A DNA stretch of 64,000 nucleotides from assembly GCA_026770705.1 (NCBI GenBank), contig JANJGN010000210.1:186001-250000 (forward strand), written 5' to 3'. This stretch comes from Isurus oxyrinchus. Lineage: Eukaryota. Below the pieces are notes generated by a model. The model saw only the letters and a list, made by a program, of their open reading frames with translations. It did not search any database and was not told where the DNA came from. Position numbers and translations under genes: made by a program. This document shows positions 5,557-55,979 of this stretch, piece after piece. Each line of letters starts with the position of its first letter. The stretch's first letter is position 1.

Positions 5557-5573
5557 CAGCGCCCTCTAGTGAC
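5557..5573 (-). promoter_or_regulatory. CTCF-like motif about 22 bp beyond the RSS nonamer
   Basis: GTCACTAGAGGGCGCTG matches the vertebrate CTCF core consensus CCA(C/G)(C/T)AG(A/G)(G/T)GGC(A/G). Confidence 0.6.
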
Positions 5574-5635
5574 TCTAACCGGAACTCCCAGTGTGGGTTT
5601 TTGTACAGTATCCGCTGTACCTCTGCAGCACTGTG

Positions 5636-6092
5636 GGGCTCATGGCACAGAAATACATGGCGGTGTCGGAGAACAGGGCATTGCGAGTCGTTAACTCAGT
5701 AGCTTTGGCAGCTTTACTAAACGTAGAAGAGAATTGGTCTGTAAAGTTTGGCTTCCGCTTTGCTATCCCCCCACAGAGGTAAATCACAAACTGTGGGGTC
5801 TGCCCGGCTGCTGACTGTAACACTGGGCGAGGATCACTTGTTTTCAAGATGCAGTTTATGGCGTCATTCCCTTCCACTTTAACTATCATTTCAGGTACCG
5901 CCTGCTCCACTGAATCGTCATGACTCCAGTCTAACATAGACAATGACGATATTTAACGTTGCATCATCAGGACAAGCATTTTGCCATAAATAATGATTGA
6001 GATACGGCAGCGAGGGGGAGAATTAATTTGTACTAGGAAATATACTTTCTGAGAAGTGACATCATAACGAGTGGTCTGAGATAGTCCCACAT
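5636..6092 (-). pseudogene. TCR alpha/delta V pseudogene (family B)
   Basis: Leader 6050-6092 with donor GTAAGT->GAAAGT; V exon 5636-5930 lacks the conserved FR2 Trp (compensated frameshift); ends DTAMYFCAMSP; RSS CACAGTG-24-ACAAAAACC at 5596-5635. Confidence 0.85.
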
Positions 6093-6855
6093 GATGCTCC
6101 CTGCATCTGTTACTCTGTTGTCCATGAATCCTCTGTTAGGGTAGAAATAGAGGTCTCCTCCCCACTGGACTCCTGATCCAACCAATGTCAAACAGGGAAA
6201 AGGGGCAACAATCTCTCCAATAAAACAGGGCAGGCAAGGCAGGTCAGAGCGAGAACAGCAAAAGGAAGCTGTGCGCGGGGCTACTGCAGGCAGTGTTGTC
6301 ACACGTAGGATTTATCTACAAGGAACTGAACTCAATAATAATCACAGCATTGAAAATTATATAACTTTTCCTGTGTGTAAGAACTGTAGCTTAATCTTTA
6401 TTCCATATTGCTGGCCAGCAGGCTCGCAAACGCAGTGCCAGAGTTAGTAAATTATTCAATAGTAAGCGTCATCTTCATCAGCGATGCGGATTGAAACCAG
6501 GGCCTAATACATGAGCAACAGGATTCGGAGTGGTTCTGAATTAATGTATAAGATTGTAGAAAAAGCTTTAAACGTTTATATTGGAGAGGGAAAAAGGAAA
6601 TGTACGCAGTTTTCAGAAAAGACTGAAGAAACGAATGGTAAGAAGCATTTAAGAAGGGAAAGGTGTCGAAAACCAAATAAGGCATCACAGACCGAATTTT
6701 CAACCTCATATCTATTAAAAATACAAGGTGCAATCACAAACCAATATGACTGTGCAAGTGGACCTCACCTGCTGCTGCTATTGAGTCCTGTGTTTTGTTG
6801 CAATTTTCAGAATCGCCCTGACGCTCTCACTGTGGAAACTGAATTACCGGTGTGT

Positions 6856-6873
6856 GCGCGCCCTCTGGTGAAC
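6856..6873 (-). promoter_or_regulatory. CTCF-like motif about 22 bp beyond the RSS nonamer
   Basis: GTTCACCAGAGGGCGCGC. Confidence 0.6.
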
Positions 6874-6895
6874 ACATGCTGGAACTGCCAGTGAG

Positions 6896-6935
6896 GGTTT
6901 TTGTACGGGATCCGCTATATCTCTGCAGCAGTGTG
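6896..6935 (-). other. RSS with 24-nt spacer
   Basis: CACACTG-24 nt-ACAAAAACC. Confidence 0.85.
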
Positions 6936-7440
6936 GGCTCCATGGCACAGAAATACACGGCGCTGTCGGGGGTCAATGTGTTACTGATCGTTAGCTCGGT
7001 AATCTTGTTATTTTTATGAAAAGTAGAAGAAAATCGATCATTGAGGTCGGTGCCCCTTTGCACACTCTGGCCAATAAGACGAAACATGTACATTGGGGGT
7101 TTCCCGGGGCGCTGACTGTACCAGTGCACATAAGGGTTAGAATCACTTGTTTTCAAGGTGCAAATTAGTGTGACATTACTTTCCTCTTCAGCAGTTATTT
7201 CGGAAACCGGCTGCTCCACTGTGTCTTGATGACTCCATTCTAACAGAAATAATAATAAAGACAACAATCAGTATCAGCCCCATTTTAATCAACATAATCA
7301 TCACCAACACCACCATTATTATTTTACCAGCAATAACATCTGGGTTATAGCTGTCAGGAGGAGAATGGAGTTTTACTGGGAAGGAAATACTTACTGAAAA
7401 GTGACATAATGATGAGGATAGGAGCGAGACTGTTCCCCAT
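6936..7440 (-). CDS. TCR alpha/delta V segment (family B), apparently functional
   Basis: Leader 7395-7440 MGNSLAPILIIMSLF with GTAAGT donor; AG acceptor; V exon 6936-7239 with Cys23, HWYSQ and DSAVYFC intact. Confidence 0.92.
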
Positions 7441-8345: not shown

Positions 8346-8734
8346 CCACTATGTCCCCACATTTGTCATCACTTTCTGGCATTAGCATGAGAAACAACAC
8401 TGACTGTTTAATCAGGTCCAAACTAGACTTCTGAGAGACATTATCTGACATTCGCGCTTTAACATGTAAATCAAGAAATCCAATATCTAGTCGATGACCC
8501 CATTCTAAACCGGACTGAACAGAATTCACCAGCAGAGGGCTCCAAGGGCATCGCCAATTCACGTGTCACCAACGGTAAAGTCAATAGTGATGGTTTCCTG
8601 AGTGAGGTCACAATGGGCCTGGCCCCCTGCAGTATGTGTGTGGAACAATGAGCTGAACAGATTGCGGGTGAGGGAACTCATTCTCAACCTCTGACTCATT
8701 CCGTTCACATTCACTGACAGAGATTCAATCAGAC

Positions 8735-18770: not shown

Positions 18771-19834
18771 CTGGTTCACTGTACTGCTGATCTATCCAAT
18801 GGCAAGAACAGACCAACGGAAGCAATACCCCAACAGCAAAATCAGGTCAGAGGACAGGTACAAACGGAAGCTGTGGCCGGGGATGCCGCAGATTGAAAAC
18901 TGAAAAAAGTGCGCGACGGTGATCAGCTGAAGCCGGAACTGATGGAGCGGAAATAGCGACGGTTGAATTTCCAGGAGACTGTGAGCATCCTGCACCTGTT
19001 CACACATCAGGTGACTGAGAACAAATAATGCGGGAGGGGCAGGTGGGGGCCAGAATCAGAGGAAGATACAGGGCAGAATAAAGACTCCGCTTATCGTATC
19101 TGCGTCTATTCGAAAGAGCCATACCAATCGTCTTTCGCAAGCCACATTTTCTACGTTCTTTTCCTTTTTCTACTAATAAACAACTCCATATTGAAATTTA
19201 CATTTGGATCCTCTTCCCGCATCATTTCAGGCACCGTATTCCAGACGGTAAAACACACAATGTAATAAATAAAACAGATCTTTCCCTCAGTTTTTTCATG
19301 AAATCGAAATGATTTGGTTATTCAATCTTCTGATAATGGGAACAATTGCGATCTAATATGTCAAAAGGGCATAATTTTTAGCACATCAATTGAGTCTCTC
19401 TTCTACCTTCTTTGCTACGAGGACAAGAAACCAAATTTCCGTATCCTGTTCGCATAAACTTCCTTCGTCTCTGGTACCATTCTGATGTGCAGCGTCCGCA
19501 CTTGATCCAAAATCTAGACATTCCTTCTACTTATTCACACCCATGATTTGGGCAGAGAACTCCAGCAACGATTTCTCAAGATTTAACATCACATTCCCAC
19601 ATGAACATCAGCAGCACAAAAGACTTTGTCTGAACAGCTCCAATTTACAGCTCCAATTTAGAGTTTTGGGATCATTCGTGCCTTGATGTGCATTTCAATA
19701 AACCTTGGGTCCAATCAACGGCCGCACCCGAACACGGATTGAGCCGAATTCACCAGTGGACGGCACCAAATTCAAGAATGGGCGTCACCAAGCCACGTGG
19801 TAGAAACGAAAAAGCCAATAGGGATGATTTCCTG

Positions 19835-21499: not shown

Positions 21500-24400
21500 G
21501 CAGAGGTAGATCAGTTTTTGATAAACAAGGGAGTGGAAGGTAACCGGGGTTAGGTGGGAGGTTACAGTCAGATCAGCCTTCACATTATTTAATAGCGGAG
21601 TAGGCTCTAAGGGCAAACTACTCCTGCTCCTATTTCCTATGTTTGCAGATGCTTGCCATCCTGAAATTTGATTGATTTTCTACTTTGATGATTAAGGTGC
21701 TCGCAAGCCTTATATTCTTCCACAATGAACAATCACAACCTCATCAGTTGCGGATTTAAGAATTCATGAACCAGAATTTCATCTACTTATGCAAATGAAC
21801 ACGTACTTTCTTAATGACGTAGGCAAGTCAGAAAACGGAGGTAAATAATCTCGGGCTGAATATTAAATAGTAAAAGTAGCAGAAGCAAAAAAATGGAAAT
21901 AGAGAAGTAATAATAAAATCAGAGCCATAAAAAACCATAATAACGTGGCAGAATAATCATGCAGCAATATTCGAGAATAAATTGAGAGTCGTTGTTTTAC
22001 AGGCAAGTTTCCACGAGTTGGCACTCCAAGATCTTATCTTTGGAGAAAACTTAGCAAGCCGTCAGTTCACTACTCTGACAGGTGACAGCTGGGGATTACA
22101 GGAAATATTTAGGTGCCGTGACACGTTACTGTAAACAATAGTGCATATAGGGCAAGAATCAATAGATTAAGTCCCGACTTAGAGTTGGAGCCGTATAAAT
22201 CATTATATTTCATGGTCAATTTCACTGCACAGTCCGAAATAAAATGTTACCAAAATGAGAGACAGAGAGAGACAGAGAGAGAGAGAGAGAGAAAGAGATA
22301 GACCGAAAGAGAGAGAGATCAGTCCATTTTTCCGTGACCGAATATTTTGGTCACTATTGGCCACAGCTTCAAAGTATCTGGAAAATACTTGGACACTCAA
22401 ATCCCTTCAGTCCACTACAAAGGTCAGAGAGTTAAACATTCCCACTGCCCTCTGTGTAAACAATATTACTAACATCACAACAGCGACTAGACTGGAAAGG
22501 TACTTCCTTAGGTTGGAAAGTGGTTACTGACACCCTGAGTCTGTGAAAGGCGATTTCTCTTTTCGAGTGATGTTTGATTCCAGGTGTAAAAATTTAATGC
22601 CCTCAATGTTTCCATGGTGTCCAGTAAAGTTTAATTTTCCGAATTCCCTTCTCTTTAATTCAATCCTTTTCCCTGGATTGTGTTGATGAAGGGTCAAGAC
22701 GTCCTGGGATTATCAGGATTCTGTCTCCGGTATTTTCACAGATTCTGTCCACTCGACGGGACACTGTTAATGTGTCGGAAACGACAATCCGGGAATTTAG
22801 TAAGGAGCCCCTGACGGAAACTGGCTTCCTGTTCAGAGAGCCCCAGTGATCGAGGCGCCTAGAGGCCACTGCGACCCGTATGTCAATCAACAACCTGATC
22901 ACCACTATGAAAGTCTTATACTCATGTACCTGATCGTGTATATATAAATTATGCATTCACTTTCAGGAAGCTGCACATGCATAACAACACAAAGGCCATT
23001 CTGCAAACACTACATCTCAGCCGCAGATTCAGATATTCGCCCTATCGCCTCTGAACAAGACGTTTCAGGCTTCCGTCCATTTCTCGAGGCAGAGTCTATA
23101 TTGATACTTCAGTTCAGTCCTCAGGGAATGGTACACCGTTAGAGGGGCCGGCTTTCGGATGAAATGTTAAATCGAGGACACCGTCTATCCTTTCAGGTGG
23201 ACATAATTGATCACATGAGCGCTATTTTGGAGGAAGAAAGGGAAATTGGCCCGGACAATATTTCTCCAACAATCACCGTAACCGAAATGGTTGTAGTTGT
23301 TGAATGTCAGCCATCTCAGCTCCAGGACAAGCAGTGGTAGATCGATTTTTGATAAGCAAGAGAGTGGAAGGTAACAGGGGATAGCTGGGACGTTACAGTC
23401 AAATCAGCCATGAACTTATTGAATGGCGGAGCAGGCCTGAAGGGCCGACAGGCCTACTCCTTCTCCTATTTCCCATGTTCGTATATATTTGGCATCCTGA
23501 ATTTTGGATGATACGGGTACTCTCAAGCCTTACTTTCTTCCGAACTGAACAATCATAACCTCATCAGTTGCGGATTTAAGAATTCATGAACAAGAAATTT
23601 ATCTATGCAAGTGAACACGGACTGTCTTAATGACGTAGGCACGTCGGAAAATTGAGGTAATTAATCGAGGACTGAAAATTAAATAGTAAAAGTAGCAGAA
23701 GCAAAAGAATGGAAAGGCAGAAGCTACAGTGATAATACAACTAAAGCCATAAAAAATAATGTGGCAGAATAATCATGCAGCAATTTTCGAGAATAAATTA
23801 AGAGCCGTTCTTTTACAGACAGATTTCCACTAGATGGCGCTCCGTAACCTTATCTTCGGAGAAAACTTACCAAGCGCTCAGTTCACCGCTCTGACAGGTG
23901 ACAGCTGGGGATTATAGGAAACATTTTGGCGTCGTGACACGTTACTGTAAACAATAGTGTAAATAGGGCTAGAATCAATAAATTAGTTACACAAGATACT
24001 GAGAGATGGAGCCCTATATATCATTGTATTTCATGGTCCAAATTCACTGCGTAGTCCGAAGTAAAAGGCTACTACAATGCGAGAGAGACAGAGAGAGAGA
24101 GAGAGACAGAGACATAGAGAGAGACAGAGAGAGAGACAGAGAGACAGAGAGAGATCAGTCCATCTTTTCCTGACCGAATATTTTGGTTACTATTGGCCAC
24201 AGCTTCAAAGTATCCGGAAAACACCTGGACACTCAAATCCCTTCACTCCACTACAAGGGCCAGAGTGACTTTCTGGCAGAGAATTAAACATTCCCACTGC
24301 CGTCTGTGTGAACAAAATTTCTCACATCACAGCAGCGACTACACTGAAAAGGTACCTCATTGGGTTGGAAAGTGCTTACCGACACCATGAGTCCATGAAA

Positions 24401-25700: not shown

Positions 25701-28159
25701 ACACCGACGTCCACGAGACCGCCCCCACACCTCGCCTGCACCAAAGTGGGTCCGCCCCGCACTTTATCCTGAATGTTTAAAACATGAACAATATTCCAGT
25801 GAGAATGCATGAAATTCCATCCTTCCAGCGCCGCCTCCACCATTACCGTCGTACATCGGCTCAGTACCTGTTTGGCCTCAATGGTTAAAAACCTGAGATA
25901 TTTCCCTGTGAAGATCAACGAAAGAGGCCCCCATGCCGTCTTCTCTCACTAGTTAAAGATTTCTACCATTGAGCTGTGACAGGCGAATAGCACCTGGTCT
26001 ATGGAGTAGCTCTGTGTCTGTCTGCATGCTTTGAGACACGTACAGAATGTGGAACATGAAACTGAGACTAGGAACGATGGGTGATGCAGAGGGAGTTTGA
26101 ATAAAATGAGACCCAGTACGGTGCATGTGCAGAGAAACAACAACAGAGGGACATAGGTGAAGGTGAGATTGAACACATTGAGTGGTAAGGAGACACATCA
26201 ACAGAGAGAGATGCAAAATGCTGAGGTGAGGACAGTTAGTGATATAAAGAGCGAACAGCAGAATGATATCGATGTGGAGATGTGTTGATAAATATAAATG
26301 CACAGAAAGTAATTGGTTGATAATTACTGTTCTCCCACATGACCCTTGGTGCCATGAACTGCGGTAAAGCGATCATCACAGCTCTGTGTAATAATAATAG
26401 ATGAAAGAGACAAACACTGACTGAAGTTCTAGGGCACACGCACAATCTGTAGTGACACCAGGAAACATGAGAATTCGTGAAACCTGCTGGTTTTAATAAG
26501 GAAAATAGGAATGACGCTGGAGGAAACAATGGGAAACAAAGGCAAAAAATAACAAACAGCAATGTAGGTGGAGGTTTATTATTCCATATATTATACTGTT
26601 TCAGGCCGTGGCAGAGCAGAGCTCAGCTCTTTAATAGAACCTGACTTGTGAGTGTAACAGCCCATAGCATGAGCGAAACTAGCCAGGGTTTCCTGTCCGC
26701 TCTGCGCTCATTCTGCCTCTGAGGTTTGCCAGAAAAGGACAAAGGTAAAGGGCTCTTTATTCTGATGTGACAATGGATGACGCAATGGCTCCTTCACTGA
26801 GGGGCCTTGAGTTCAAACACAAACGACCCAGGACTGCCAAAGAAACCCTGTCAGGGAAAGGGGAAAAATCATGTTATTGGGAAAATGCAGCGGTGTGGAG
26901 GAGCCTTGGAGAAAATCATTCATCAAAGTCCAAATTAATTCATCATCATTCAACATTTGTTCGCAATTTCACAAAGAATATTTTAGAGTATTTTTCTAAT
27001 AATTGACAGAAAGTGTTTATAACAACTGGACATCACCTTGAGAAAAAAAGTACACGTGAACAGAGAAAAGTGGGGTTTAGTGTAGAGAGAAGAGAACAAT
27101 TGAGTGCAAAACAAGGAACACTTTAATGCTAGACATCTGGAATATTCAAACAACTGTGAAAATCTAAGATATATTTCTATTACAGCCAGAATCACCTCAC
27201 ACACTTCAAATCGCATTTATCTGTTTCCTCTGTTAACTGAAGACATTTTACTTTGAGAATTGTCAAGAGGACATATTTTATATTCATACCATAGTGATCT
27301 TAATAAACGGGTGTGGAAAATCCACGGCGTTGGCCATTCAACGGGTCATATGATAAAGGGCTGAACCAAAGTTTTATGACGTGAGGAATTTATCTAGGCC
27401 TTACTGTCCACGAGACGTTTGTAGATTTTTCCAACCGCTTCAGGCAGATTTAAATGTGAATGGATTGAATCTTCTCACTTTCACCAGAGTGACGGCAGCG
27501 CTGTGGAAAATAGTGAAGAGGAACGGGATGATAAATTTAGAAGCGGTTATTCAGGTGTTGTTGCTCTCTTCTTCGTTGTCTTCAATCCAGATGCAGTCTG
27601 AGAAATCTACGAGAGTGTAGAGGAGAAAAGCTAATCAGATGGGTTAATAACCCGGGCACAATATTAGTGTAGATTCTCTTTTCTCCTCCTGAAGGTACAT
27701 GTTTCTTCTCTACTTTACTTTTCAATGTGCTTCTTGTAGTATGTTAATCACTCTGAACAATTTCTCTGTTTCTATCTCCACTGCTGCTCTTCCTGAATGA
27801 TCCTCTAAGTCACACTGAAATATTGAATTCTGATACTAATCACTGGCAAGGCGCGTGAGTGAAAGGTTTGGGAGATTGTGAAATAGATACAAAACTGTGG
27901 AGGAAAGATGCGCTCCGAGATGGGTGCTGCCAGTTTCGGATCTGGGTTTAATATCCGACTAGAAGGATGAAAATATTTAGAACAATCTGTTATTTCCTGT
28001 CGAATTCTAAACCAGACACTATGAATTCCCCCATGTTCCTTCCTGATGAAACTGGCCTTACTGCCTGGTGAATCTATGTTTAATTAGTGTGTTATCCAGG
28101 CGTTGTATTGACCCTCTGAGTTTGAAGCATTCTGGATTTGTGCTACAGCAACAATTAGC

Positions 28160-28480
28160 GATGATCCAGTGTTCCAGGATCCTTCTGAGTTAATGCTTCG
28201 GGAAAGGCAGACTTTCGGTACTCAACAAACTAACTTGCTCCCACTCTGTTCCAGTATATTCAGTGTCCCGGGGAAGTTCTAAGATATTACTGAAGATATA
28301 TAACTTGGGGAATGAAGCGAGGTCTCCAAACTTACCAAACAAGTTATTTGCTGATTTTCACAATGGAAACAAAACGTTTCCTCTAACTATCGCAAGGGTG
28401 ATTCTCGCCAAGAGCGTGGTGTATTTCTATGCTATGAACCGACATTGTTGCAGAGATATAGCGGATCCCATGCTGAAACC
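28160..28480 (+). pseudogene. Degenerate V relic with decayed 24-spacer RSS
   Basis: ..LLKIY..FADFHNGNKTFPLTIARVILAKSVVYFYAMN then GACATTG-24-GCTGAAACC. Confidence 0.7.
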
Positions 28481-29446
28481 CTCACTGGGAGTTCAACTGT
28501 GATCTCGCATCGATAAAGAGAAACAATAATTCAATCACCGCAAAGAGAGTCAAAGGGACATTCCTGAAAGATCATAACAAAACACAATACTCAACAAGAA
28601 GAGGTCAGGAACACTTGCAGAATTATATTAGATTATTTAAATTCGCATTTGTATTATAACCGACCTTCATATGTTTATTTACTTTAATTTACACAATGTA
28701 TTTTACTGCAGTTTCAGTGCCTGTCTGTAATATTGAACAACCATTTTTTAATCTCCCTTTTCAGTTTCCTGGAGCCTTATAGCTAGAGCTGTTCACAGGG
28801 TTTATTTGATCAGAGTGTGTTGCTGGGTCAGAAAATGTTTATGCACAATGAACAGATTTCACAAGGGTGCGTTCTTTAAAACAAACCCCAAGTACAGATT
28901 GAGCTTCAGAATGTTTCCTTAATGCTGGAATGTTTTCTGTCACCATTAACAATCCCGAGTTTGCTTGTGACAATGAACAGACCGGGATTTCATTCCCCCA
29001 ACCTCCGTCTCTACAAGTGCAGCCATTCCCCTATCAGGGAACTGACTGCAGTCCAGCTCGGGATATTTCCCTTCAATGTCAGACAGCTCACCACCGACGG
29101 ATCTCCCAGGCCAACGGAGACACAAGGAAGTGAAGTGAGAGCATCTTGAGACACGACAGCAAATTATTGAGGGTGGGGTTTAGAATGGATGTCTTCAAAT
29201 CAGATTCTGTGATGGCTCTCTCGGTCGGATAGAGTTCTGCAGTTTATCCTGTCGGTCGCTCCTGGAAACGGTTAGTAACAGTTTGATCCGAGGTTAATGT
29301 AGTTTCCTCTCGGTTTGTGTTTGAGAGGCCGACAAGCTGACACTGCATCTTCCCGAGATTCTCTACAAACCCCAACAGACAGGAGCCCTTATTCACAGTG
29401 CCAAGGCAGTTTTTGCACAGGGGTGACACTGCTTTCCATCACTGTG

Positions 29447-29910: not shown

Positions 29911-31352
29911 TGTCGCTGTCTGTTCTGTAAAAAGGGGAGTTGGATATTTGAAGATAGCCGTTCTAAACCCCACCCTGAACAATCTGCTGTCGTGTCTCAT
30001 GATGTTCTCACCTCACTCTCTTCTGTCCCCAGTGGTGATGTGAGGACGTCAGCTGTGAACTGGCTCCCAATGAGTTGAAAAATCCAGAGCTGGGGTACAG
30101 TCAGTGTTCTTATAGGTGAAATGGTTTCGCAGTTAGACTAAAACCCTTACTTAGTTGTTGTAACCGGAAGCATGGGTTTGCTGATTTAGTTTGTTTATTC
30201 TGGCGTCAATTCTTCAGCTGAAGTTCCAGTAGCCTTAACAACAGGATACAGGTAACCGTGACTCCAGTGAGATTTCCCTCCTCAATCAGTGAAGTAGTGA
30301 ACTAACAATAATTTCGCCATTTTGCCAGAGTGTTTTTAGGATCCGTCATATTGAAAGGATGATATTTGCTGAAACTGAACATACACTGAGTAAAAATTAA
30401 TAATAAACTCGCGTGTAATTGAATCAGCGTTGACCTTTTCTGTGATTTGTATTTAAATTTCTGTTTCAATTTGCTCTGTGAATTCTGACATTCTTCGTGT
30501 TTGTGATGATTAATCTAACCATCCATCATATACAGGTTTGGAATTTGTGATGAGAGAGAATTTGGGTTGCGGCGCTTTTTAAGCAACTTGTCTCCTATCG
30601 CTTTAAAGTGGGCGGGAACAGAGAGCCTGAGCGGGTTCAAAGCTTCCAGGATGAGCTGCAGAGCGGGTTTTTATTAACAAGAATTGAGTACCAGCAGACT
30701 GTTTTAATAACCTTAGCTGGGGTTAGAAAATGGCTATGGAGCAGAAAAAGAAGTAAACCAGAGACATTTTTAGTTTGTCTTTCGCTCCTTTGATATCCAT
30801 TTTCACCACCGATGCATTTAGAATTACTGCGACCTCACGCCCTCTAGTGAGTATTCTGAGAAATGTTCAGTCGCCGCTGGTCAGATTGTGAGAGATTCTT
30901 TATTTAATCACTGATTTGATGTGACAGTTCATATTTGTAGGATGTTCAGTTTCAGCGGTCCTGACTTAATATTCTGAGCAAAAAAACAAACGTTTTATAT
31001 TACTGAACTAAAGACTGTAAGAAGAAATAAAAAGGGCGATGATTAAATAATAAAGACAGGCGATGAGAGGAAACAGACTGCGAAAATATAGGGAAAGGCA
31101 GGTCAGTTAAGATTCCACAGGTGTATCTGTAAATTTAATTTTTATATAAATGTGAGTTGTTGGTATGATTTTATAAATGGAGCTCCCCTGTTCTTATTGA
31201 ATGTTGTGTTTCATTGCAATTTTAAAAGTCTATGTAAATCTCATTGTGGTGGCTGAATTATTGCTTCTGTTTTTATTAAATTTATTGAATTATTTCTTTC
31301 CGTTTTATTGTTGCCTCAGTGCCCTCTAGGGACTCAAGTTGGAGCCAGCGTG

Positions 31353-31850
31353 GGTTTTTGTCCGTGATCCTCCATATCTCTGCAGCATTGTGGGGCTCCA
31401 AGGCACAGAAATACACGGCAGAGAGCAGGGTTTTGCTAATCATTACCTCAGCAGTTCAGATAGTCTTGCTAAAGCGTCAAAAGAATTGTTCTGTAAAGTC
31501 TGGGTTCCGCTTTATTATCCCTCTGCAGAGATAAAACACAAACTGTGGAGTCTGCCCAGGCTGCTGACTCTACCGGAACACATTAGGGCTGGGGTGGCTT
31601 GTTTTCAAAGTGCATGGTATGGTGACATTCCCTTCCTCTTTGACAGTCATTTCAGTTACATACTGCTCCACTAAATCCTGATTGCTCTGTTCCGACACAA
31701 ATAATGACAATATTTATCGTTACTTCATCATTACAAGCAATTTGCTATAAATAATATTTGGAATACAGTAGCCAGGGGGGAGAACGTTTTTTTTTACATA
31801 TACTTACTGAGATGCGATATAATAATGAATGGCCTGACATATTTCCACGT
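31353..31850 (-). pseudogene. V pseudogene (family B, paralog of the 5.6 kb V)
   Basis: Ends SAVYFCALEP; RSS CACAATG-24-ACAAAAACC at 31353-31392; splice acceptor and start codon decayed. Confidence 0.85.
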
Positions 31851-32655
31851 TGTCCCCCGAGTCTGTTATTCTGTTGTCCTGGAATCCTCTGTCAGCTTAG
31901 AAATAGAGATTGCCTCCCCACTGCGCTGCTGATCCAACCAATGTCAAAAAAGGCAAAGTGGCGACAATCTCTCCAATAATAAAACAGGACAGACAAGGCA
32001 GGTCAGAGCGACAACAGCAAATGGAAGCTGTGAGCGTGGCTACCGCAGGCAGTGTTAACACACGTAGGATTTATCTACAAGGAACTGAACTGAATAATAA
32101 TCACACCTTCGAAAATTATACAACTTTGCTTCTCTCTCACAATTCAGTTTAAACTTCATTCCATATTCCGAGCCACATAGATAGCAACAGAAGTGTCAGA
32201 GTAAGTATATCATTCAGTAGTAAGCGAAATCTTCTTCAGCGCTGCGGATTGAAATCAGGACCGAATACATGAGCAACTGGATTGGAGTGGTCCTGAATGA
32301 ATGTAAAAGGAAGTCGATAAACCTTAAACGTTTATATTAAACACGGGAAAAGGAAATGTGCGCAATTTTCAGAAAAGTCTGAAGACGAGTGGTCAGGAAA
32401 ACTCAGGAAGGGAAAGGTGTCGAAAACCAAAAAGGAGAAATTAGGCATGGCAGGCCGATTTGTCAGTCTCATATCTATTAGAAATACAAATTGCAATCAC
32501 AATCTAATGAGACAGTACAAGTGGACCTCAACAGTTGCTGTTATCAAGTGTGTTTTGTTGCAATTTTCAGAATCTTTCTGTCACTCTCACAGTGGAAACT
32601 GAATTACCGGTGTGTGCGCGCCCTCTGGTGAGCACTGGCTGGAACTGCCAGTGAG

Positions 32656-33340
32656 GGTTTTTGTACAGAACCCGCTATATCACTGCAGCAGTGTGGGGTC
32701 CATGGTACAGAAGTGCACGGAGGTATCGGGGATCAGTACGTTTGATAAAAATAACAAGATGACTGTGCTAACGATCAACGGATCTTCATCTTATTAGCCG
32801 GAATGTGCAAACGAACACCGACCCCAATGATTGGTTTCCTTCCACGTTTGATAAAAATAACAAGTTTACCGAGCTAACGATCCATTGATTGTTAGCTCGG
32901 TAATCTTGTTATTTTTATCAAACGTGGAAGGAAACCAATCATTGAGGTCGGTGTTCGTTTGCACATTCCGGCTAATAAGACGAAACATGTACATTGGAGG
33001 ATTCCCGGGGCACTGACGGTACCAGTACACATTTGGACTTGAATCACTTGTTTTCTAGGTGCAGGTCACTGTGACATTACTTTCTGCTTTTGACGTTATT
33101 TTAGGAATCCGTTGTTCCACTGTGTGTTGATAGCTCCATTCAAACAGAAATAATAGTAACAGACAATCAGCGCCAGCCTCCTATTGATCAACATAATCAC
33201 CAACACCGCCATCACTATTATTTTAACAACAATAACATCTGGGTTACAGCAGACAGGAGGAGAATGGAGTTTTACTGGGAAAGGAATACTTACTGAGAAG
33301 AGATATAAAGATGAGGAGAGGAGCGAGATGCTTCCCCACA
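32656..33340 (-). pseudogene. V pseudogene (family B, paralog of the 6.9 kb V) disrupted by an inverted duplication
   Basis: RSS CACACTG-24-ACAAAAACC at 32656-32695; start ATG->GTG; acceptor AG lost; FR3 interrupted by a fold-back. Confidence 0.9.
32789..32980. repeat. Near-perfect inverted repeat, 94-bp arms and 4-nt loop
   Basis: 32789-32882 is the reverse complement of 32887-32980 with few mismatches; loop CATT. Confidence 0.9.
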
Positions 33341-55639: not shown

Positions 55640-55979
55640 TATGATTCCGCCAGTGTTCAGCAGAGGGTAGATTGCTAAAGTTGTCTGTGTGTGATTATGA
55701 CACTGCGCAGCAAAGGGTAGATTGTTAAAGGTGTGTGTGTGTGTATGTGTTTGTGTATGTGTGTGATTATGACATTGTCCAGCAGAGGGTAGATTGCTTA
55801 AGATGTTTGGTGGGTGTGCGTGTTTGTCATGATCACAGTGCCCAGCAGAGGGTAGATTGCTCAAGGGCTGTCTGTGTGTGCATGTGGTAATGACAGTGTC
55901 CAGCAGAGGGTAGATTTCTAATGTTGTGTGTGCGTGTGTGTGATTCAGGCAGTGTACATCAGAGGGTCGATTGCGAAAG

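What the first reader, a model, noticed from the sequence alone, without database searches (positions are those of the whole stretch)
5557..6935. CTCF-like motif about 20 bp beyond the RSS in the four full-length family-B V genes
Seen: GTCACTAGAGGGCGCTG (5557-5573), GTTCACCAGAGGGCGCGC (6856-6873), GTCCCTAGAGGGCACTG (31317-31333) and CTCACCAGAGGGCGCGC (about 32616-32633). Each lies 19-22 bp past the nonamer and points in the direction of V transcription. Established: RSS-adjacent CTCF sites promote use of proximal mouse VH genes during loop extrusion. Inference: a similar arrangement exists in a shark TCR V family. The four copies derive from only two independent genes plus their duplicates.
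Basis: partly seen in the sequence, partly recalled or inferred. Interest (0 to 1): 0.7.

Follow-up and report, generated by a model that had tools for sequence, protein, structure and literature searches.

The report
CTCF-site cassette on shark TCR genes
Two families of shark T-cell-receptor gene pieces carry a conserved match to the binding site of the chromosome-looping protein CTCF right behind the signal where DNA is cut during receptor assembly; the site is likely bound and likely helps these pieces get used, as similar sites do in mouse antibody genes.

Summary
The four motifs are real: minus strand, 17-21 nt past the nonamer, 10.8-17.0 bits (CTCF matrix recalled). Three of the four V genes are pseudogenes; only V6935 is intact. 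The feature is much wider than the window. In 1.59 Mb of this shark's TCR alpha/delta region, 52 of 77 V genes of two related families carry it, against 0 of 96 others. It looks selected: 36 of 44 lineages keep at least 10 bits, against 13-19 expected under neutrality, and part of CTCF's upstream motif is present. The site lies in a ~330-bp 3' cassette with an unusual 24-nt-spacer RSS, shared by two families whose exons are only ~55% alike. A horn-shark gene model shows the same register. Against a plain copy of the mouse VH model: carriers are scattered and of both orientations, the copies nearest J are inverted, pseudogenes keep the site as often as intact genes, and one intact lineage lost it. 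Binding and V usage are untested. No earlier scan note on it was found. Verdict: new variant of a known kind.

The parts
6936..7440 (-). Intact TCR alpha/delta V gene V6935 (leader 7395-7440, V exon 6936-7239)
   Evidence: relatives in horn shark and cloudy catshark at 66-73% identity
6896..6935 (-). RSS of V6935: heptamer CACACTG, 24-nt spacer, nonamer ACAAAAACC
6881..6890 (-). Upstream (zinc finger 9-11 type) CTCF motif match, 8 of 10 to CTGCAGTTCC, ending 9 nt before the first base of the 15-bp core
   Evidence: sequence; consensus and spacing from PMC12885311 passages; survey
6856..6874 (-). CTCF core motif, 17.0 bits
6635..6970 (-). Approximate extent of the shared 3' cassette (end of FR3, RSS, CTCF site, ~250 nt flank); limits projected from family consensuses
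5636..6092 (-). V5635 pseudogene: conserved Trp lost, donor GT>GA
5596..5635 (-). RSS of V5635: consensus heptamer and nonamer, 24-nt spacer
5581..5590 (-). Upstream motif match, 7 of 10, ending 8 nt before the first base of the 15-bp core
   Evidence: sequence
5557..5575 (-). CTCF core motif, 17.0 bits
31353..31848 (-). V31392 pseudogene (stops) with 24-nt-spacer RSS 31353-31392
31317..31335 (-). Weaker CTCF core motif, 10.8 bits
32656..33339 (-). V32695 pseudogene (stop; inverted duplication 32785-32984) with 24-nt-spacer RSS 32656-32695
32616..32650 (-). CTCF core motif (32616-32634, 15.9 bits) plus upstream motif match (32641-32650)
28140..28560 (+). Decayed member of the second cassette-bearing family (heptamer at 28441); CTCF core deleted
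8526..8544 (+). Promoter-side CTCF motif (18.4 bits) of another V family; a different design in the same locus
19750..19768 (+). Promoter-side CTCF motif (12.4 bits), about 200 nt before the leader ATG of intact V20497

Best explanation
The four motifs are members of a conserved, family-restricted CTCF-type element placed directly behind a 24-nt-spacer RSS in two shark TCR alpha/delta V families; it is likely bound by CTCF and likely raises recombination of the adjacent V by stalling cohesin and keeping the RSS accessible. Shown: the motif, its fixed position and direction, its restriction to two families, its excess conservation, a partial upstream motif at canonical spacing, and a ~330-bp cassette (FR3 end, RSS, site, flank) shared by two families with saturated exons. 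Also inferred: CTCF binds in thymocytes, and the bound site works as a local, orientation-tolerant impediment or accessibility mark rather than as one half of a fixed convergent loop, because carriers face both ways. Speculative: it offsets the cost of the off-length spacer.
For: 52 of 77 clade genes vs 0 of 96 other V genes, and 21 of 30 vs 0 of 53 lineages, have a forward motif of >=10 bits; 1 of 173 has a reverse one. 36 of 44 ungapped lineages score >=10 bits, against a neutral star simulation mean of 13.4 (max 25 in 5000 runs) or 18.8 (max 30); a tree simulation gave a mean of 2.4 (max 25 in 3000; probably overstates the gap). High-information columns are conserved at 0.91 vs 0.77 in the flank (p=0.001) and 0.81 in the near flank (p=0.011); conservation follows information content (rho 0.55, p=0.014). 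Site rates are 0.72 vs 1.06 (p=0.0005). Variation at position 7 (G24/C18) and 8 (C35/T8) is what the matrix allows. Upstream motif >=7/10 in 28 of 70 RSS-adjacent sites vs 12 of 190 other distinct hits. The two-part motif is shared by lamprey, chicken and human (PMC5504073 passages). A horn-shark read-through gene model matches the translated cassette in register, with all 7 codons over the core identical; its best match in this genome is 63-64%. Six reverse-facing against one forward hit lie between C-delta and the first J-alpha, one of 24.1 bits, as with the mouse TEA site (PMC5859386 passages). In mouse, deleting the VH5-2 RSS site cuts use 50-fold and inverted sites keep substantial activity (PMC10293834 passages).
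Against: No binding or repertoire data were seen. Pseudogenes keep the site as often as intact genes (28 of 39 vs 10 of 13, p=1.0). An intact three-copy lineage (C26:32250984 and copies) has deleted the core, and 8 of 52 lineages have gaps or deletions in it. The whole flank is slow: about 45 of 66 translated positions match horn shark (hand count), and other V families also keep 0.55-0.66 identity in the 40 nt after the nonamer. The consensus has T at high-information position 4, and the 5' half of the upstream motif is degenerate. The tree-based link between information content and rate is weak (p=0.06). The cassette has a single origin, so the co-occurrence of site and 24-nt spacer is one event; a family-B lineage with a 23-nt spacer keeps the site. 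In related organism A the V5635 orthologue carries a change at core position 7. The nearest family copies on C242 point away from J.
Confidence: 0.55

Rival explanations
1. The sites are bound by CTCF but serve locus architecture: they fold or insulate V islands spread over many megabases among other antigen-receptor genes, whether or not the neighbouring V is used. Their place beside the RSS reflects only how the cassette was duplicated.
For: Equal retention in pseudogenes and intact genes; both orientations; V islands scattered over 23.8-40.2 Mb, with 0 of 20 evenly spaced 10-kb samples holding a V; TCR V exons lie between IgH clusters in sharks (PMC12227049 passages); the upstream motif is typical of insulator sites (PMC12885311 passages).
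Against: The distance to the nonamer stays within a few bases in most carriers (mostly 17-22 nt; 13 in one lineage), which architecture alone would not need. Slow shark divergence may leave young pseudogenes too little time to lose the site.
Confidence: 0.27
2. Neutral inheritance: an ancestral V happened to have a CTCF-like sequence, and slow shark divergence plus gene conversion among duplicates has kept it without function.
For: The whole 3' flank is conserved to about +300 and is recognisable in horn shark; there is a single origin; several lineages lost the core; my simulations ignore gene conversion.
Against: The core is conserved above its immediate flanks in a matrix-shaped pattern; 0 of 5000, 0 of 5000 and 0 of 3000 neutral runs reached 36 of 44. 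The core CpG is kept in 37 of 48 lineages, against 28 of 52, 25 of 43 and 36 of 52 at the three other consensus CpGs. The upstream motif sits at canonical spacing.
Confidence: 0.12
3. The conserved block is bound by another factor (the paralogue CTCFL or an unrelated zinc-finger protein), or is an extended part of the RSS needed for a 24-nt spacer, and the CTCF likeness is incidental.
For: The spacer itself is well conserved (0.83); sharks have CTCFL (PMC7471279, search listing only); position 4 departs from the CTCF optimum.
Against: Column variation follows the CTCF matrix, and two separate CTCF sub-motifs occur at the known spacing.
Confidence: 0.06

Closest known systems
RSS-associated CTCF-binding elements of mouse proximal VH genes (VH5-2/VH81X; families 7183, Q52, S107 and others) and human clan 2/3 VH genes
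   Same: Site within 100 bp 3' of the RSS, lost on joining, facing in V-transcription direction, and segregating with V lineage rather than position (PMC4914699, PMC5859386 Table 2, PMC10293834; passages read).
   Different: Here it is on TCR alpha/delta V genes of a cartilaginous fish, behind a 24-nt spacer, in both orientations and over many megabases. The 3 IgH-like V genes I sampled lack it, so it is probably convergent rather than homologous. Binding is not shown.
CTCF sites of the mouse Tcra/Tcrd locus (V promoter sites, TEA site, INT1/2, E-alpha sites)
   Same: Same locus type. A second shark V family has forward promoter-side motifs (14 of 17), and reverse motifs cluster before the first J-alpha.
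   Different: Mouse Tcra/d sites are listed as upstream of promoters or intergenic, not at the RSS; Tcrb has 2 near an RSS (PMC5859386 Table 2). The shark locus appears to use both designs.
Bipartite (core plus upstream motif) high-affinity CTCF sites
   Same: Core plus GTTCC-type upstream motif at 8-9 nt spacing (PMC12885311).
   Different: The upstream match is partial (consensus 7 of 10) and varies among lineages.

Membership tests
RSS-associated CTCF element (VH5-2 type) | CTCF core motif within ~100 bp 3' of the V RSS | tested here: met
   17-21 nt after the nonamer in the window; 52 of 77 clade genes
RSS-associated CTCF element (VH5-2 type) | Fixed direction relative to the V gene | tested here: met
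   52 forward vs 1 reverse among 77 clade genes
RSS-associated CTCF element (VH5-2 type) | Segregates with V lineage | tested here: met
   0 of 96 genes outside the clade; tree
RSS-associated CTCF element (VH5-2 type) | Faces the D/J end, convergent with a downstream anchor, for most carriers | tested here: not met
   16 + and 16 - on C26; the motif-bearing copies on C242 face away from J. The window's contig is not joined to the J-C core, so its own geometry is unknown
RSS-associated CTCF element (VH5-2 type) | Concentrated on D/J-proximal V genes | tested here: not met
   No motif in the V genes sampled between 363 and 585 kb of C242; carriers are spread over 17 Mb of C26
RSS-associated CTCF element (VH5-2 type) | Bound by CTCF and cohesin in recombining lymphocytes | not testable with these tools
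   No run listed was recorded as ChIP; library fields were empty
RSS-associated CTCF element (VH5-2 type) | Loss lowers use of the adjacent V | not testable with these tools
   No repertoire data reached; a natural site-less intact lineage exists for the test
Bipartite CTCF site | Upstream CTGCAGTTCC-like motif at a 5-6 bp linker | tested here: inconclusive
   8 of 10 at V6935 and 7 of 10 at V5635; >=7 in 28 of 70 sites; the 5' half is degenerate
TCR alpha/delta V gene | V exon with 23-type RSS related to annotated shark TRAV and lying in the TRA/D complex | tested here: met
   73% to a catshark protein named TCR alpha chain-like; paralogous V block on the contig with J-delta, C-delta, J-alpha and C-alpha. 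Alpha versus delta use is unknown
Transposon-borne CTCF site | Motif lies in an interspersed repeat found genome-wide | tested here: not met
   All 40 scored matches (of 124 candidates) to the RSS flank lie in the V-bearing regions

The most novel reading that the evidence does not exclude
Sharks evolved, independently of mammalian VH genes, a portable recombination module: a 24-nt-spacer RSS welded to a bipartite CTCF site, in which CTCF rescues an off-length signal. The module was handed from one V family to another by recombination in FR3. Together with promoter-side sites on another family and a reverse-facing cluster before the first J-alpha, this would mean CTCF-guided V choice already shaped antigen-receptor loci in cartilaginous fish.
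Probability: 0.3. Interest if true: 0.78.

Novelty: new variant of a known kind. Interest (0 to 1): 0.55.

Why it matters
CTCF control of V(D)J recombination has been worked out in mouse and human. A selected RSS-adjacent site in shark TCR alpha/delta V genes would push this design back to cartilaginous fish or show that it evolved twice, and in a locus type where mammals put the sites at promoters. The genome offers a ready natural experiment: intact paralogues with and without the site, and with 22-, 23- or 24-nt spacers. The shared cassette also shows how a V family can acquire a new recombination signal and a regulatory site in one step.

Tried and rejected
Transposon origin of the motif: rejected on the scored matches (40 of 124 candidates were scored). 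Alternative RSS register with a 23-nt spacer: it would need four nonamer mismatches (read), so rejected. A conserved heptamer-like element about 125 nt further downstream as a D segment: no upstream 12-RSS seen by eye, not pursued. DAD1 as a locus marker: 26 matches, none on C26. Expression: no RNA holder listed; two guessed-RNA runs gave no cover on family-B genes, which is no evidence either way. DNA runs of coded organisms A and B cover the stretch, but only 40 of 304 difference rows were shown. My first spacer-signature split wrongly took in supporting V-delta genes and was replaced by exon-based families. Supplements of PMC5931798 (4 files) and PMC10322711 (18 of 19 files searched) held no matching sequence; figures and one scanned PDF could not be seen and may bear on whether this family is expressed. 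The genome search for the minisatellite behind C-alpha was not scored. The structure database search gave only generic Ig/TCR V hits. The elephant-shark V in P0010 is only 37% like family B; its apparent 23-nt spacer is a weak hint and was not used.

Full report
OBSERVATION. The four motifs are in the sequence on the minus strand, 17-21 nt (19-mer start) past perfect nonamers, scoring 17.0, 17.0, 10.8 and 15.9 bits; local shuffles reach these scores 0, 0, 7 and 2 times in 2000. The matrix is JASPAR MA0139.1 as I recall it, not fetched. Only V6935 is an intact gene; the other three are pseudogenes. All four RSS have a 24-nt spacer. All 44 open human VH genes keep 23 nt, though 22/24-nt spacers are used in V-lambda and TCR-beta (PMC2212390 passages). 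One-base changes reduce joining, from moderately to drastically according to the studies summarised in PMC7753069 (passages).

CONTEXT. The window is G000:C210:186001-250000 in a 4.98-Gb genome. V6935 has relatives in horn shark (66-70%) and cloudy catshark (73%, named TCR alpha chain-like). A C-delta query found C-delta on C242 and C26, and a C-alpha-like transmembrane exon on C242. C242 holds 7 J-delta, C-delta, 81 called J-alpha (88 J in all) and C-alpha. The C26 copy is a ~91%-identical J-delta/C-delta paralogue, with no J-alpha in the stretches sampled. Family-B matches lie in islands over C26:23.8-40.2 Mb and on several unplaced contigs; 0 of 20 evenly spaced 10-kb samples held a V. The window's contig is not joined to the J-C core.

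SURVEY. I fetched 1.59 Mb, chosen around family-B hits, the core and the 20 even samples, so it is not a random sample and may hold haplotype duplicates. Among 173 V genes with a recognisable RSS, 52 of 77 in the clade (family B plus one related family and a singleton) have a forward motif of >=10 bits, against 0 of 96 others. By lineage it is 21 of 30 vs 0 of 53. The 24-nt spacer occurs in 65 of 77 vs 1 of 96. In a protein tree of 43 intact representatives the two families are sisters with moderate support (92/80).

SELECTION. 118 clade genes (after dropping four lineages that were antisense mis-calls) collapsed to 55 lineages. I dropped 3 with a non-homologous flank and set aside 8 with gaps or deletions in the core. 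Of the remaining 44, 36 score >=10 bits. Neutral star simulations at each lineage's flank divergence give 13.4 (max 25 in 5000 runs) or 18.8 (max 30). A tree simulation gives 2.4 (max 25 in 3000) and probably overstates the gap, because the consensus was set at the midpoint root. High-information columns are conserved at 0.91 vs 0.77 in the flank (p=0.001), and conservation tracks information content (rho 0.55, p=0.014; tree-based -0.44, p=0.06). An upstream motif like CTGCAGTTCC (PMC12885311, abstract and passages) matches at >=7 of 10, at 8-9 nt spacing, in 28 of 70 RSS-adjacent sites vs 12 of 190 other distinct hits; three of those 12 are family-B sites my V caller missed. The two-part motif is common to lamprey, chicken and human (PMC5504073 passages), so shark CTCF should read it (inference). 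None of these tests allows for gene conversion.

THE CASSETTE. Between the two families, exon identity is 0.54-0.55, the same as between unrelated families (0.53), but the RSS is 0.82 and the next 40 nt 0.69 (unrelated 0.62 and 0.49). Family consensuses are 37-67% alike per 30-nt window up to -30, 83-100% from -30 to +120, 67-90% to +300, then background. Single genes show the same break. Some members of the second family have a wholly different flank, mostly with a 23-nt spacer and without the site. The simplest reading is capture of a ~330-bp 3' cassette by the second family; the direction is inferred, and tree support for a single gain is weak (63). A horn-shark gene model that reads through the RSS matches the translated cassette in register: eight codons between heptamer and nonamer, all seven codons over the core identical, about 45 of 66 overall by hand count. 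Its DNA was not seen, so third positions are unknown. Its best match in G000 is 63-64%, so it is an independent lineage. It also shows that the whole flank evolves slowly. Contigs of coded organisms A and B cover the stretch. The listed changes in the cores are one at position 7 of the V5635 site in three organism-A runs, one at position 3 of the V6935 site, and a 2-nt gap in one diverged contig; only 40 of 304 difference rows were shown.

RESULTS AGAINST THE SIMPLE MODEL. Intact and broken lineages keep the site equally (10 of 13 vs 28 of 39, p=1.0). An intact three-copy lineage lost the core by deletion. Motif-bearing genes on C26 are 16 plus and 16 minus. On C242 the nearest family copies (342.8, 344.2 and 360.7 kb) are inverted relative to J-C, and no V sampled between 363 and 585 kb has the motif. 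In mouse, linear RAG scanning favours convergent RSS, and most V-region sites face J (PMC10293834, PMC5859386 passages). The shark arrangement therefore fits a local, orientation-tolerant role better; inverted mouse sites keep substantial activity.

MECHANISM. Most likely (0.55), CTCF binds core and upstream motif just behind the nonamer, stalls cohesin and keeps the RSS accessible, raising use of that V, perhaps offsetting the 24-nt spacer. Binding, stalling and compensation are all inferred. Rivals: architecture independent of the adjacent V (0.27), neutral inheritance (0.12), another factor (0.06). Supporting context: six reverse vs one forward hit of >=13 bits lie in the 40 kb before the first J-alpha, against one hit in the 92-kb J-alpha array, resembling the mouse TEA site. 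A different V family has forward promoter-side motifs in 14 of 17 genes, as mouse TRAV genes do.

KNOWN AND NEW. RSS-adjacent CTCF sites are known for mouse and human clan 2/3 VH genes (PMC4914699 passages) and two mouse V-beta genes, while mouse Tcra/d sites are at promoters or intergenic (PMC5859386 Table 2). The VH81X distance of about 20 bp is recalled. Searches listed no paper on CTCF sites at shark TCR V genes; PMC12227049 on the shark antigen-receptor complex has no occurrence of CTCF. The library lacks most subscription papers. PMC5931798 and PMC10322711 were seen as passages and supplement searches only. The scan's index returned two NAR-TCR notes and none on CTCF. The element works like a VH5-2-type site but fails two of its geometric features, and binding is untested, so I file it as a new variant, probably convergent. 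Interest 0.55.

Noticed in passing
window 8526-8544 and 19750-19768; family-wide 685-747 nt 5' of the heptamer: A different V family carries a forward CTCF motif in its promoter (14 of 17 genes at >=12 bits), the mouse TRAV design.
   Followed up: partly
G000:C242:637008-659305 (L112-L114): Six reverse-facing CTCF-like hits between C-delta and the first J-alpha, the best 24.1 bits at 656332: a candidate TEA-like anchor.
   Followed up: partly
G000:C242:764112-776609 (L125, L184): A 43-bp minisatellite of about 266 units, 12 kb behind C-alpha, most units scoring 14-17 bits as reverse CTCF-like motifs. It could be a 3' anchor array or a common repeat; the genome search was not scored.
   Followed up: partly
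G000:C26:29.84-29.94 Mb (L062, L186-L191, L203-L205): A second J-delta/C-delta copy about 91% identical to the C242 one, with no J-alpha in the sampled DNA, in the middle of the V islands.
   Followed up: partly
G000:C26:23.8-40.2 Mb: TCR V genes occur as dense islands over about 17 Mb, with large recent segmental duplicates; 0 of 20 evenly spaced 10-kb samples held a V.
   Followed up: no
G000:C242:380-550 kb (L170-L181): An array of NAR-TCR-type V (22-nt spacer) and supporting V-delta pairs, all inverted relative to J-C (family labels recalled).
   Followed up: no
G000:C242:558686, 565168, 574916, 581361; C26:29862509: A V family whose best-called RSS has a 25-nt spacer with a poor nonamer; the register was not checked.
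   Followed up: no
window 32785-32984: A 200-bp inverted duplication inside V32695, shared by several paralogues.
   Followed up: no
window 36657, 39721, 40266, 55654-55915: A repeated element gives many 9-16 bit CTCF-like hits; strong isolated hits lie at 23824 (20.7 bits), 49914, 16694, 10284 and 43150.
   Followed up: no
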